A stretch of 64,000 nt of DNA from a virus. Under the pieces are notes generated by a model that saw only the letters and a program-made list of their open reading frames with translations, did no database searches and was not told where the DNA came from. Positions 39,961 through 45,770 of the stretch are shown piece by piece. Each line of letters opens with the position of its first letter. Position 1 is the stretch's first letter. The translations under genes were made by a program, and so were the position numbers. The stretch lies in IMG/VR virus record IMGVR_UViG_3300023488_000162; one strand, given 5' to 3'.

Positions 39961-40038
39961 CTGGTGGGACAGGCAAGATTTGAACTCGCGACCAAGCGGT
40001 TATGAGCCGCCAGCTCTGACCAACTGAGCTACTATCCC
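39961..40038 (-). tRNA. tRNA-Met (anticodon CAT; could also be Ile2/lysidine type), CCA encoded
   Basis: Hand fold: acceptor GGGATAG/CTGTCCC, D-arm AGCTCAGTTGG, anticodon loop CTCATAA, T-arm GCGAGTTCAAATCTTGC. Confidence 0.75.
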
Positions 40039-40064
40039 ATGCAAACGCCGATTTTCATCGGCGC

Positions 40065-40136
40065 GATGCCAGCGAAGGAATCGAACCTTATCTCTCGGCG
40101 TTTCCGAGCGCTTTTACCATTAAGCTATCCAGCCGT
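40065..40136 (-). tRNA. tRNA-like sequence, degenerate. Possible pseudo-tRNA or non-canonical tRNA.
   Basis: Clear D-arm (TAGCTTAATGGTAAAAGC) and T-arm (AAGGTTCGATTCCTT), but the acceptor strands are not complementary by hand and the anticodon arm folds as CTCGG-AAACG-CCGAG, a 5-nt loop. Confidence 0.3.
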
Positions 40137-40265
40137 ATACCTCAGAATTTAATTCTCACTATCCAAGCTACGTCGCGTTCCAATATGATCACTCTTGGCA
40201 ACCATGTCGTAACATATAGGCTTCTTTCGGCTCTGAGCAACCGGTGCAGCGTAAGGGGCTGCGTG

Positions 40266-40341
40266 TGGAGCGACTGACGGAGTACGATCCCGCAACATTC
40301 GGAATGGAAAACCGACGCTCTGCCAATTGAACTACAGTCGC
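40266..40341 (-). tRNA. tRNA-Gly (anticodon TCC), CCA encoded
   Basis: Acceptor GCGACTG/CAGTCGC, anticodon loop TTTCCAT, unusual T-loop ATCGTAC closed by G-U pairs. Confidence 0.6.
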
Positions 40342-40443
40342 ATAAGAACCCAACTTACAAAGCACTACTGCACCATCACTGGCGAGCTGGGAATAATAGT
40401 GGTCAAAGGAGTTCAACCATGAACAACAACAATTCATGACCGT

Positions 40444-40527
40444 GGTGCGGATAGTGGGGGTCGAACCCACACGCCTTGCGGCACAGGAACCTAAATCCTG
40501 CGCGTCTGCCAATTCCACCATATCCGC
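40444..40527 (-). tRNA. tRNA-Leu (anticodon TAG), type II with long variable arm, CCA encoded
   Basis: Acceptor GCGGATA/TATCCGC, anticodon stem-loop CAGGA-TTTAGGT-TCCTG, T-arm GTGGGTTCGACCCCCAC. Confidence 0.7.
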
Positions 40528-40532
40528 ATAAA

Positions 40533-40603
40533 TTGCGCCAACAGGGGTCGAACCTGTGATGGAGGAGTCAAAGTCCTCTGCCTTACCGCTTGGCGATGGC
40601 GCA
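40533..40603 (-). tRNA. tRNA-Gln (anticodon TTG)
   Basis: Acceptor TGCGCCA/TGGCGCA, D-arm GCCAAGCGGTAAGGC (Gln-type), anticodon loop CTTTGAC, T-arm ACAGGTTCGACCCCTGT. No CCA encoded. Confidence 0.7.
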
Positions 40604-40691
40604 TCATATACCCCGCTTACTACGCCACATTGCTCTGTTTCCAGAGAGCCGGGAATAATGTGAATGAAAAATTCTACATGCCCTTTCGGGC

Positions 40692-40767
40692 TGGTCCGAG
40701 TGACAGGTCATGATCCTGCGGCCTCATGCTCCCAAAGCACGCGCTCTTCCAACTGAGCTACACCCGG
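40692..40767 (-). tRNA. tRNA-Pro (anticodon TGG), CCA encoded
   Basis: Acceptor CCGGGTG/CACTCGG, D-arm GCTCAGTTGGAAGAGC, anticodon loop TTTGGGA, unusual T-loop ATCATGA. Confidence 0.6.
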
Positions 40768-40774
40768 ATATAAA

Positions 40775-40858
40775 TGCCACCGACGGGATTTGAACCCGTA
40801 CTCTGTTGCCAGAAAGGGATTTTAAGTCCCTCGTGCCTGCCAATTTCACCACGGTGGC
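40775..40858 (-). tRNA. tRNA-Leu (anticodon TAA), type II
   Basis: Acceptor GCCACCG/CGGTGGC, anticodon stem-loop AGGGA-CTTAAAA-TCCCT, long variable arm, T-arm ACGGGTTCAAATCCCGT. Confidence 0.7.
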
Positions 40859-40863
40859 TTATA

Positions 40864-40945
40864 TGCCCAAAATGGGATTCGAACCCATACGCTTTCGCAG
40901 AGTTGTTTGAGAACTCCATGTCTGCCTACATTCCATCATTTGGGC
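40864..40945 (-). tRNA. tRNA-Leu (anticodon CAA), type II
   Basis: Acceptor GCCCAAA/TTTGGGC, anticodon stem-loop GAGTT-CTCAAAC-AACTC, variable arm TGCGAAAGCGT, T-arm ATGGGTTCGAATCCCAT. Confidence 0.65.
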
Positions 40946-41012
40946 TTATATCGCCGGTCTTTCCCGGCTGTCAGCCCCGCGCAGGGCATTTCGGAGGAAG
41001 AAAATATCTTAG

Positions 41013-43223
41013 TTATTCGTGCCGATTCTCATAGAATTCATTCCGTAACTGAATAATACCCTTCTTGCAAAAAGATTCCTGGTCTTTCTCTCGTTGCTCA
41101 CGCATCCAACCATAGAACAGGTTATCCTCAGCAGTAAACAACTTTGCGGTATTTTCATAATAGCCACGCTTCTGAACGCTCTGCATAACACCACGCAAGA
41201 ACTTCCAGTGCTTATAATAAGGAAGCTTCATCTTAAACATGAAATTGTTGCTATCTCGCAAAACAAAACCTTCAACGTGTTCAAAGCCATGATGCAGATA
41301 GTTCTCGTTCATGACTTTCTCGTACCAAGGATAGAATTCACTCCAGCTCTCAAAGATTTTAACCTTCTCCTTAATCTGCAAATGACACTTTTCAGCAACA
41401 CGCTTCAGATCATCGAAATCCATCACACTGAAGTTCATATCATTCGCAACAATATCCAGCAAAACAATGTGCGGTTTCTTGTATTCGATGATATGAGCAT
41501 CATTTACAGGATCAATCACCTCAAAAATAATGGAACCATTCTCTTTTGCAACTTCCTTCAGATTCTTACGGTCTTCATCAGAAGTCGTATCCATGAGAAT
41601 CTTTCGGAACATATCTGCAAAAGGCCCTTCAGGAGTGGATTTACTTGCAATGAACAGACCATCCTGTTCTGCATCATACGAGACAATGCCAAGAAATCCG
41701 TTTTCCTTCAGATATGCAGTCACCGGGAACTTCAAAGTGTTCTGTAGGTTTCCAATTCTCGTTTCATTCCGCTCATCGACCGCAAAGAACTTATCATAGC
41801 TTCGAGCTACAATCTTATTCGTCTTTGTGTTAATGAACAATCCCCTTGCTTTGGTAGAAACCTCATCCCAGTGCTTCTTATAAAATGCTTCACGAGAGAA
41901 GTTGAAAGAAGAAATATCTCCGAATCGCTTCTCAAACACATATTTGCTTTGACGCATCTTACTGACAAGTTCTGCGTTATCGAACTCAGTTTTCATTTCA
42001 ACGGCAGTTTCAGTCTTTGGCTCCTCTTTTCGGAACACATCATTCTTTGTTTCTACACATTTGATTGACTGACCATGTTCAAGTTCCACGCAACGGAGAT
42101 ATCCACCAAACTCGATTTTTCCTTCGAGGTTGTAGCACCGATGCCCCATATCAATAGGAACATCCTGCACATTTCGATGACCGAAGATCTGAATGTAGCT
42201 ATCTGGCATCGATTTTTCCCAAGACTCAGCCACGGTTAGCATATCAGGATAGCGACCTACACCTTTAATCATCTGGTCAGCAGATACAGAAGGAAGAAAA
42301 TAAGGCAGATAACTCAAACCACCGTGGCTCACGAAATACCGCTTCCCATCATACTCAAAGTAGGCACATTGGCCAACTCTGGAATAGATCTTACGAGCAG
42401 TGTTCTTATCAATACCGGCTTTAAAGAGCTGCGGACGAGTGTAGTTTGCAAACTCTTCACTCTGAACCGGTTCATCATGCCCCCACTTGTTCAGCCAACG
42501 CTCGTGATTCCCTTCCAAAAGGATCACATTCTTGCGGTTGTTGTTTACAACATCACACAAGAACTTGAATACCTCAACGTTTTCAATGCCACGATCAAGA
42601 TAATCACCAACGAAGATATAAAGTTCGTCGTCCTTCATCTCACCAAGGTATTCACTTAAACAAGTATAACAGCCATGAACATCACCGATGACATGAATCT
42701 TCTTCCACTGGTTGAAGTCATTCGGACAGTAGTTCAAATCGGACATCACATCCGTAGTAGAAGGAAGAACTGTCACGCCAGAAGGAACTTTTTGAGTAGC
42801 AAACCGAGCGTACATCTTATCAATAGCCGCTTCAGGAACTCGCTTCAGCCATTCTCTCTGAGCGTTTCTTCGTTTGCATTCCTCGATCGGAAGGTCCGTC
42901 ATGTTAATAACATACATCCGATAACGATACTGTTTTGCAAGATTCTTATAACGATTCATTTCGACCGTCTTGGAATTCGTTGCATCAATCACGGTAAACT
43001 CGCCATGACTCATACGCACCTCAAGCAGTTTGAAAAGCATCTCCCATACAACATCATCATTCTGCGGAGAAATCTCCATCTGCCCAGCAGGTGTTTCCTG
43101 TGCGCTCTGGCACATAAGGCGAAGTGTATCAGCACTCAATACGTACTGCTCAAGATTATGCTCTTTAATATAGGTGGACTTCCCGCATCCGGGTGCTCCA
43201 CGGAAAAGAAGCAAAGTTCTCAT
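41013..43223 (-). CDS. Pnkp-like RNA repair enzyme: polynucleotide 5'-kinase + metallophosphoesterase (2',3'-phosphatase type) + ligase-like nucleotidyltransferase domain
   Basis: N-terminal P-loop FRGAPGCGKST. Central calcineurin-like motifs GDVHGC, GDYLDRG and GNHE. C-terminal covalent-nucleotidyltransferase motifs YLKENGF (I, KxNG), IIFEVID (III), VEGFVLRD (IV) and FKMKLPYYK (V, KxK). Confidence 0.65.
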   Translation of the reverse strand: MRTLLLFRGAPGCGKSTYIKEHNLEQYVLSADTLRLMCQSAQETPAGQMEISPQNDDVVWEMLFKLLEVRMSHGEFTVIDATNSKTVEMNRYKNLAKQYRYRMYVINMTDLPIEECKRRNAQREWLKRVPEAAIDKMYARFATQKVPSGVTVLPSTTDVMSDLNYCPNDFNQWKKIHVIGDVHGCYTCLSEYLGEMKDDELYIFVGDYLDRGIENVEVFKFLCDVVNNNRKNVILLEGNHERWLNKWGHDEPVQSEEFANYTRPQLFKAGIDKNTARKIYSRVGQCAYFEYDGKRYFVSHGGLSYLPYFLPSVSADQMIKGVGRYPDMLTVAESWEKSMPDSYIQIFGHRNVQDVPIDMGHRCYNLEGKIEFGGYLRCVELEHGQSIKCVETKNDVFRKEEPKTETAVEMKTEFDNAELVSKMRQSKYVFEKRFGDISSFNFSREAFYKKHWDEVSTKARGLFINTKTNKIVARSYDKFFAVDERNETRIGNLQNTLKFPVTAYLKENGFLGIVSYDAEQDGLFIASKSTPEGPFADMFRKILMDTTSDEDRKNLKEVAKENGSIIFEVIDPVNDAHIIEYKKPHIVLLDIVANDMNFSVMDFDDLKRVAEKCHLQIKEKVKIFESWSEFYPWYEKVMNENYLHHGFEHVEGFVLRDSNNFMFKMKLPYYKHWKFLRGVMQSVQKRGYYENTAKLFTAEDNLFYGWMREQREKDQESFCKKGIIQLRNEFYENRHE

Positions 43224-43691: not shown

Positions 43692-45770
43692 TTAAATAAC
43701 AACTTTCAGAACCCGCTCAGTAGCGCCCTGAACCTTGACAACAAAGGAATCATGTTTCGTCTCAGAGAACCCAACGCCGGACAGCTGGTCATCTACCGAC
43801 TGAACTGCCATCTGAGAACCAAGAGCCTCAAATACTCGCTTATGCTGTAACAGTTCCGCCTTCAGGAATTCATTGTAGAAGCCATTGGGCTTTTCAGGGT
43901 TAACACAATCCTTGAGCATGAAGAAGTAGTGACGGTTGCCATTACCAGTCTGTTCATCCCAGTAGTTCGGAGAGTACATCACAACAGACACAGGCACGAA
44001 CTGATTGGAATTTACACCCCAGATCTCGCGGGTGCTAGTAGAACTGGGCAGCAGCTCCTTGATAGAGAATTTGCCATCCTTCAGCGTGACTTTTGCCACG
44101 GCGACATTCTGACCCTGATGCAGCGGCTTATCATAGTTAAACGAGTAGATGTTGCCATCAAATTCGATTTCAGCACGGAAACCAGTTTTACCACCACGAT
44201 TAGCGTAGCAGTTTACATAGAAGCTGTACTCGCCCTCCTTCATCTTTTTGATGTCAGGCCAGGTGATATTCTCGACCGCAGCTTTCCCCTGATTAGGACA
44301 ACGGATATCAACATCTAGGCGGCCATCAGTACGAGGATTCCACTTATCGCCATAATAGATATGATTCTTATCAGGTTCAATGCAATGAGCATCCTCATCG
44401 TTTTCATCCCATTCACCCGACACATCGTTCCACTGGATCGAGAAACGCAGCACACCATCCACCTTGCCGCCAGCAGCCTTAACGTTTTCGCGAATATCGC
44501 TGTCTGTCATATTACCTGTATACGCCCAACTGAAACCATTAGGCCACTTGAACATGCTCGGCGCACTCTTATCCTGCGGTGCAATCAAAGACATCATATT
44601 CTTCTCAAAACGATTCTCCATGAACAGTTCTAAGCCAGTCGCAGTCGGAAGAACATCCCTGATGAATTTATCGATACCGATTTCTTCTGCACGGCCAAAC
44701 TTCTTCGGATCAATCGCAACAGTCTTAGCCATTGCCTCAAACGGATTCACAGCGCCCATCACACGAGGGGCAGCATCACGGTTGCAGAACATGATGTTGT
44801 TGATAGTAACATCATCCAGAGTGGCGAACCGACGACCCAGACTGCTCATATAGCCAAGTTCGGTGACAGTCTTCTTTGCATCTTCCAACATCTTCTTGGT
44901 AAAAATCGCCTTGGGACGCTTATAGTTTGCAGGAGCAACAACTTTCTCGAAAGCAGTAACGGCTGCATCCACGTTCATACCCTCACTCAGATTTACCAGC
45001 AAAGTACCGATAGCGGTGTTACGGATACGAAGCTGTCCTATATCGCTCCACGCCGGTGCCAACCAAACATATGCGGCCTTGTTCTCAGTCGGAGTATTGT
45101 CGTATTCGATTTTGTTAGTCTTGAATACCTTGACGGCGTTTTCAAATTCCTTACCACGATACAGACTATTCTGTGCAATCAGCTCCAGAACAGTATCAAC
45201 AGCATCCATGGTCAGTTCTTCCAGAGAACGCTTATATACGTTTGCGGAATCACGCCACTGAGCCATCTTGGTAGCAACGTCATCAGGCCGCACAATGAAA
45301 CGCTGCGGAATCTTGACTGCGAAATGGTCCCAAGTATGCACATCCTTGTGATTTTCATCGTACTCGTAGTTCATCTCGGTGCCGAACATATCGCCAGAAC
45401 CAATCATATTGCGACTGACAAAGTACGGATTCACAATAGTGCGGCTCTTCACATAAGCATCCATGGCGTCCACAACAGGCTGATACTTGACAGACTTTGC
45501 ATCAAAATCCCACACAGTAATCATTTTTCCATCATCAAACGCTACTAGCTTGCCGATATTCTTCACGAAACGGCGGCAGCAGGAACAGTCATACTCGCGC
45601 CGTTTACGGAACAACTCATTCGTGCCAGCCGGGAAGCTGTCGAGATACAGATTGTACAGTTCATCCTCGTCTGCATCGGTGATAAACAGAGGGTTTTCGC
45701 CCTTCACCATCTCATTGAAGTGGTCTTGCAGCAGTGCACGAAATTTCTTGAAATCAGACATTGTTATCAT
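43692..45770 (-). CDS. Large hypothetical protein (692 aa), unknown function
   Basis: Long ORF with a GGAG-type RBS, preceded by motif copy F. Contains a CSCCRRF motif. No family recognised by eye. Confidence 0.45.
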   Translation of the reverse strand: MITMSDFKKFRALLQDHFNEMVKGENPLFITDADEDELYNLYLDSFPAGTNELFRKRREYDCSCCRRFVKNIGKLVAFDDGKMITVWDFDAKSVKYQPVVDAMDAYVKSRTIVNPYFVSRNMIGSGDMFGTEMNYEYDENHKDVHTWDHFAVKIPQRFIVRPDDVATKMAQWRDSANVYKRSLEELTMDAVDTVLELIAQNSLYRGKEFENAVKVFKTNKIEYDNTPTENKAAYVWLAPAWSDIGQLRIRNTAIGTLLVNLSEGMNVDAAVTAFEKVVAPANYKRPKAIFTKKMLEDAKKTVTELGYMSSLGRRFATLDDVTINNIMFCNRDAAPRVMGAVNPFEAMAKTVAIDPKKFGRAEEIGIDKFIRDVLPTATGLELFMENRFEKNMMSLIAPQDKSAPSMFKWPNGFSWAYTGNMTDSDIRENVKAAGGKVDGVLRFSIQWNDVSGEWDENDEDAHCIEPDKNHIYYGDKWNPRTDGRLDVDIRCPNQGKAAVENITWPDIKKMKEGEYSFYVNCYANRGGKTGFRAEIEFDGNIYSFNYDKPLHQGQNVAVAKVTLKDGKFSIKELLPSSTSTREIWGVNSNQFVPVSVVMYSPNYWDEQTGNGNRHYFFMLKDCVNPEKPNGFYNEFLKAELLQHKRVFEALGSQMAVQSVDDQLSGVGFSETKHDSFVVKVQGATERVLKVVI

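What the first reader, a model, noticed from the sequence alone, without database searches (positions are those of the whole stretch)
39961..43223. Three-domain Pnkp-like RNA repair enzyme (kinase-phosphoesterase-ligase) abutting an eight-gene tRNA array
The 736-aa protein combines three sets of motifs. There is an N-terminal polynucleotide-kinase P-loop (GAPGCGKST). There is a central calcineurin-type phosphoesterase (GDVHGC, GDYLDRG, GNHE). There is a C-terminal domain with covalent nucleotidyltransferase (ligase) motifs I KENG, III FEVID, IV EGFVLR and V KMK.

This is the architecture of bacterial Pnkp, which heals and seals broken RNA ends. It differs from the T4 Pnk plus Rnl1 solution, in which the kinase-phosphatase and the ligase are separate proteins.

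The gene sits directly beside a tRNA cluster (Met, Gly, Leu-TAG, Gln, Pro, Leu-TAA, Leu-CAA plus a degenerate tRNA-like gene). That pairing fits a counter-defense package against host anticodon nucleases such as the PrrC/RloC, colicin-like, PARIS and retron types. The phage would both replace and repair cleaved tRNAs.

Bacterial Pnkp normally needs a Hen1 partner for ligase activity, and no Hen1-like methyltransferase is evident nearby. The adjacent 692-aa unknown (43692..45770) is a candidate alternative partner.
Basis: partly seen in the sequence, partly recalled or inferred. Interest (0 to 1): 0.75.

Follow-up and report, generated by a model that had tools for sequence, protein, structure and literature searches.

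The report
Phage RNA-repair enzyme with fungal-type ligase
A gut phage encodes one protein that should both clean up and rejoin broken RNA ends. It pairs the end-healing half of bacterial Pnkp with a ligase half built like the fungal tRNA-splicing ligase, a combination common in phages of Gram-positive bacteria that I found no biochemical study of.

Summary
ORF 41013..43223(-) encodes a 736-aa protein with a P-loop polynucleotide kinase, a lambda-phosphatase-type metallophosphoesterase and a covalent-nucleotidyltransferase ligase. All the quoted motifs are present. Seven tRNA genes plus one marginal tRNA-like element start 67 nt downstream on the same strand.

The kinase and phosphatase match the healing module of bacterial Pnkp. 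The ligase domain does not match the Pnkp (Rnl4) type:
- TIGR04075 (bacterial Pnkp): 79.6 bits against a cut-off of 750.

So the Hen1 question is probably moot. The 692-aa neighbour (DUF8224) is an independent mobile module, not a partner.

The protein belongs to a large family (more than 4,000 database proteins; PHROG 8238, named "RNA ligase") found in Staphylococcus, Lactobacillus, Fusobacterium and SPbeta-like phages and in Clostridia prophages.

Adjacency to a tRNA array is fixed in this phage lineage (71 of 71 relatives). It recurs in Fusobacterium phage FNU3 but is rare across the family (2 of 74 diverged loci).

Most likely it is a self-sufficient heal-and-seal RNA repair enzyme that produces ordinary 2'-OH junctions. 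A counter-defence role is plausible but untested.

The parts
41013..43223 (-). Gene for the 736-aa trifunctional RNA repair protein (stop codon at 41013-41015)
   Evidence: ORF. Pfam AAA_33 + Metallophos + RNA_lig_T4_1. PHROG 8238 matched end to end, E 2e-226. AF2 model pLDDT 89.3.
42729..43223 (-). Polynucleotide 5'-kinase domain, about aa 1-165 (P-loop G9-T17; D32, R35 and K15 invariant)
   Evidence: Pfam AAA_33 at 4e-23. Foldseek to Clostridium thermocellum Pnk 4gp7/4gp6, TM 0.72-0.76. phmmer to 4gp7 at 5e-6. Invariant residues.
42024..42716 (-). Binuclear metallophosphoesterase (2',3'-phosphatase) domain, about aa 170-400. D181, H183, D207, R211, N239, H240, H300 and H349 are invariant.
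   Evidence: Pfam Metallophos at 1e-15. Foldseek to lambda phosphatase 1g5b (TM 0.73) and CthPnkp phosphatase 4j6o (TM 0.65). By motif position the residues correspond to CthPnkp D187, H189, D233, R237, N263, H264, H323 and H376 listed in PMC3675462.
41985..42023 (-). Predicted disordered linker, aa 401-413, between the healing and sealing halves
   Evidence: The only segment with pLDDT below 50 in the full-length model.
41223..41984 (-). Ligase adenylyltransferase domain, aa 414-667. Motif I K506 (codon 41706-41708), Ia K528, III E568, IV E651-G652, V K664/K666. N-subdomain residues R460, K478 and F479.
41016..41222 (-). All-helical C-terminal domain of the ligase, aa 668-736. It holds the Y670/W673/K674/R677 cluster and the terminal IIxLRxEF motif.
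40864..40945 (-). tRNA-Leu (CAA), first gene of the array, 67 nt after the ligase stop codon
   Evidence: ARAGORN. Rfam 45.0 bits.
40775..40858 (-). tRNA-Leu (TAA)
   Evidence: 57.6 bits.
40692..40767 (-). tRNA-Pro (TGG)
   Evidence: 54.9 bits.
40533..40603 (-). tRNA-Gln (TTG)
   Evidence: 60.4 bits.
40443..40527 (-). tRNA-Leu (TAG)
   Evidence: 50.4 bits.
40266..40341 (-). tRNA-Gly (TCC)
   Evidence: 48.9 bits.
40067..40133 (-). Degenerate tRNA-like element. It has a 5-nt loop (AAACG) where the anticodon loop should be and two mismatches in the acceptor stem.
   Evidence: Rfam tRNA 29.5 bits against a gathering score of 29. Not called by ARAGORN. Recovered in 35 related loci, with a paired A-to-G and T-to-C change in the T stem.
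39962..40038 (-). tRNA with anticodon CAT (Met, or possibly Ile2), last gene of the array
   Evidence: 65.7 bits. Some relatives carry a tRNA-Ile(TAT) at the same position.

Best explanation
The gene encodes a self-sufficient, trifunctional 'heal-and-seal' RNA repair enzyme of a roughly 135-kb SPbeta-like phage of anaerobic gut Firmicutes.

Proposed mechanism (inferred from homology and conserved catalytic residues, not assayed):
1. [quoted passage not shown]
2. The N-terminal P-loop kinase (CthPnk type) phosphorylates the 5'-OH end.
3. The central Mn/Ni-type binuclear phosphoesterase (lambda-Pase / CthPnkp type) opens the cyclic phosphate and removes it, giving a 2'-OH,3'-OH end.
4. The C-terminal ligase adenylylates itself on Lys506, transfers AMP to the 5'-phosphate and seals the break.

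The ligase is joined to the healing half by a flexible linker. In fold it is a fungal Trl1-LIG (Rnl6) type enzyme and a sister of T4 Rnl1, so it should not need Hen1 or any other partner.

The likeliest substrates are tRNAs nicked in the anticodon loop by host or competitor anticodon nucleases. In this phage lineage the gene probably shares a transcript with a downstream 7-8 tRNA array, so repair and resupply of tRNA may act together. That last step is the weakest part of the argument.
For: Domain identity:
- Pfam AAA_33 4e-23, Metallophos 1e-15, RNA_lig_T4_1 4e-40.
- The full-length AF2 model has pLDDT 89.3, with a disordered linker at aa 401-413.
- Foldseek matches each third to CthPnk (TM 0.72-0.76), to lambda-Pase or the CthPnkp phosphatase (0.73, 0.65) and to Trl1-LIG (0.63-0.69).

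Ligase type:
- The ligase-only model has pLDDT 94.5 and pTM 0.90.
- The family profile hits Trl1-LIG at 3e-33, T4 Rnl1 at 3e-11 and no Rnl4 protein at E<=10.

Catalytic competence. All residues defined as essential in the characterised homologues are invariant across the family:
- Kinase: K15, D32, R35.
- Phosphatase: D181, H183, D207, R211, N239, H240, H300, H349. By motif position these correspond to eight of the nine essential CthPnkp residues (PMC3675462). I did not map the ninth, Asp392.
- Ligase: R460, K478, F479, K506, K528, E568, E651, K664, K666. From the HMM alignments these correspond to CthTrl1 R99, K120, F121, K148, K169, E218, E300, K323, K325 (PMC6379707).

Prediction of 2'-OH product ends:
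- In CthPnkp the H189D change converts the product to 2'-PO4, and wild-type ends are sealed by T4 Rnl1 (PMC1920235).
- The phage family keeps His (H183) and the monoesterase arginine (R211).
- No Tpt1/KptA, Hen1 or RtcB was found among the window ORFs scanned (most of those of 180 aa or more).

Context:
- The tRNA array starts 66-127 nt downstream in 70 of 71 close relatives.
- No terminator-like site lies between the gene and the array.
- The distantly related Fusobacterium phage FNU3 has a 5-tRNA array 0.9 kb downstream of its homologue.
Against: - No biochemical or genetic test exists for any member that I could find (literature).
- The tRNA link is weak at family level. Of 74 diverged loci with at least 2 kb of flank on each side, 5 have a tRNA within 1 kb and 2 have three or more within 2 kb. 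Staphylococcus phiIPLA-C1C, SPbetaL2 and the Alicyclobacillus phage have none within 8-10 kb.
- The array's anticodons (Leu x3, Gln, Pro, Gly, Met) are not the classical anticodon-nuclease targets Lys, Tyr, His, Asn, Asp and Arg (my own knowledge).
- The ligase keeps part of the Trl1 2'-phosphate pocket (H577, K674), so a 2'-PO4 pathway cannot be excluded.
- The substrate could be mRNA or rRNA instead of tRNA.
Confidence: 0.7

Rival explanations
1. It is a true bacterial Pnkp-type enzyme whose ligase needs a Hen1-like activating partner, perhaps the adjacent 692-aa protein.
For: The domain order is the same as in Pnkp. The kinase and phosphatase are the closest structural matches to the CthPnkp modules. 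TIGR04075 gives a partial hit at E 1.5e-22.
Against: - The TIGR04075 hit covers only aa 4-303 and scores 79.6 bits against a cut-off of 750.
- No Hen1-like methyltransferase was found in the window or in three annotated neighbourhoods.
- DUF8224 occurs in 548 phage records, mostly Vi1-like phages of Gram-negative hosts. These are nearly disjoint from the 143 ligase-bearing records.
- DUF8224 is absent from all diverged ligase loci and is present without the ligase in MT835544.1.
Confidence: 0.03
2. It works by the fungal or plant route. The phosphoesterase acts only as a cyclic phosphodiesterase and leaves 3'-OH,2'-PO4. The Trl1-like ligase requires that 2'-phosphate. A host Tpt1/KptA then removes the 2'-PO4 from the junction.
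For: - The ligase is structurally closest to the 2'-PO4-dependent Trl1-LIG, including its C-domain.
- The His227 equivalent (H577) is invariant.
- The Arg337 position holds an invariant basic residue, K674, within a conserved YYxxWKxxR cluster (triad defined in PMC11404444).
Against: - Arg334 is not conserved in the family (K671 in this protein, variable elsewhere).
- Arg337 is always Lys, and the equivalent yeast mutation R298K is lethal (PMC11404444).
- The phosphatase retains His183 and Arg211. Their CthPnkp counterparts are needed for complete phosphate removal, and only the H189D mutant yields 2'-PO4.
- No Tpt1/KptA was seen among the window ORFs scanned.
Confidence: 0.12
3. The enzyme is a general RNA (or nucleic-acid end) repair or processing factor, and its position beside the tRNA array has no functional meaning. 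Both simply sit in the accessory-gene region next to the lysogeny-control module. Targets could be mRNA or rRNA cut by MazF/PemK-type or other toxins, including the phage's own PemK homologue two genes upstream.
For: - The adjacency is not conserved in most of the family.
- The gene lies beside PemK-MrpR in several SPbeta-like loci.
- MazF-family nucleases leave 2',3'>P and 5'-OH ends (my own knowledge).
- The codons read by the array's tRNAs are minor ones in the phage's genes: TTA 9%, CTA 7%, CAA 24%, CCA 18%, GGA 21%. The array therefore has no obvious link to the needs of this gene.
Against: - The cassette is strictly conserved in 71 of 71 lineage members while the distal tRNAs turn over.
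- A similar arrangement exists in the distantly related Fusobacterium phage.
- PemK-MrpR appears to be a separate transcription unit, with a promoter-like site at 47319-47291 and a terminator-like hairpin at 45845-45829.
- PemK lies within 10 kb in only about 7 of 86 diverged loci.
- The characterised relatives of the ligase domain (T4 Rnl1, Trl1) are tRNA-directed (PMC6379707).
Confidence: 0.2
4. It is mainly a protein Ser/Thr phosphatase, or a kinase, as several phage records annotate it.
For: Some records name the homologue 'putative serine/threonine protein phosphatase'. The domain resembles lambda phosphatase and PP2A.
Against: The phosphatase domain is always fused to a polynucleotide kinase and an RNA ligase whose catalytic residues are intact and invariant. 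Lambda phosphatase-type enzymes, including CthPnkp, act on 2',3'-cyclic phosphates (PMC3675462).
Confidence: 0.03

Closest known systems
Bacterial Pnkp of the Pnkp-Hen1 RNA repair system (Clostridium thermocellum Pnkp; NCBIfam TIGR04075)
   Same: The N-to-C order is the same: kinase, binuclear metallophosphoesterase, ligase. The kinase and phosphatase are the best or near-best structural matches (4gp7 TM 0.76; 4j6o TM 0.65). Eight of the nine essential phosphatase residues have invariant counterparts.
Fungal tRNA ligase Trl1, LIG domain (Rnl6 clade; PDB 6n0t, 6n67, 8rbj, 9qw7)
   Different: - Domain order and healing modules differ. Trl1 is LIG-KIN-CPD with a 2H phosphodiesterase. Here the order is KIN-metallophosphatase-LIG.
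- The Arg-Arg pair that enforces the 2'-PO4 requirement is x/Lys here.
- The C-domain is shorter (about 69 aa against about 79) and is not detectable by sequence alone.
- The host is a bacterial virus, not a eukaryote.
Phage T4 tRNA repair pair Pnkp + Rnl1
   Different: It is one polypeptide instead of two. The 3' healing domain is a metallophosphoesterase, not the DxDxT/HAD phosphatase of T4 Pnkp. The T4 Rnl1 C-terminal tRNA-specificity domain is not matched: 247 residues aligned, and the HMM covers profile positions 54-266 only.
PHROG 8238 and NCBI-named 'RNA ligase' / 'AAA family ATPase' proteins of Herelleviridae, SPbeta-like and Fusobacterium phages and Clostridia prophages
   Same: The window protein is a plain member of this family. 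It matches the PHROG end to end (2e-226). It is 36-44% identical over 93-100% of its length to the proteins of isolated phages. It is 45-61% identical to more than 100 metagenomic and genomic proteins with the same three Pfam domains.
   Different: Nothing structural. In this lineage the gene is locked to a downstream tRNA array, unlike in most members.

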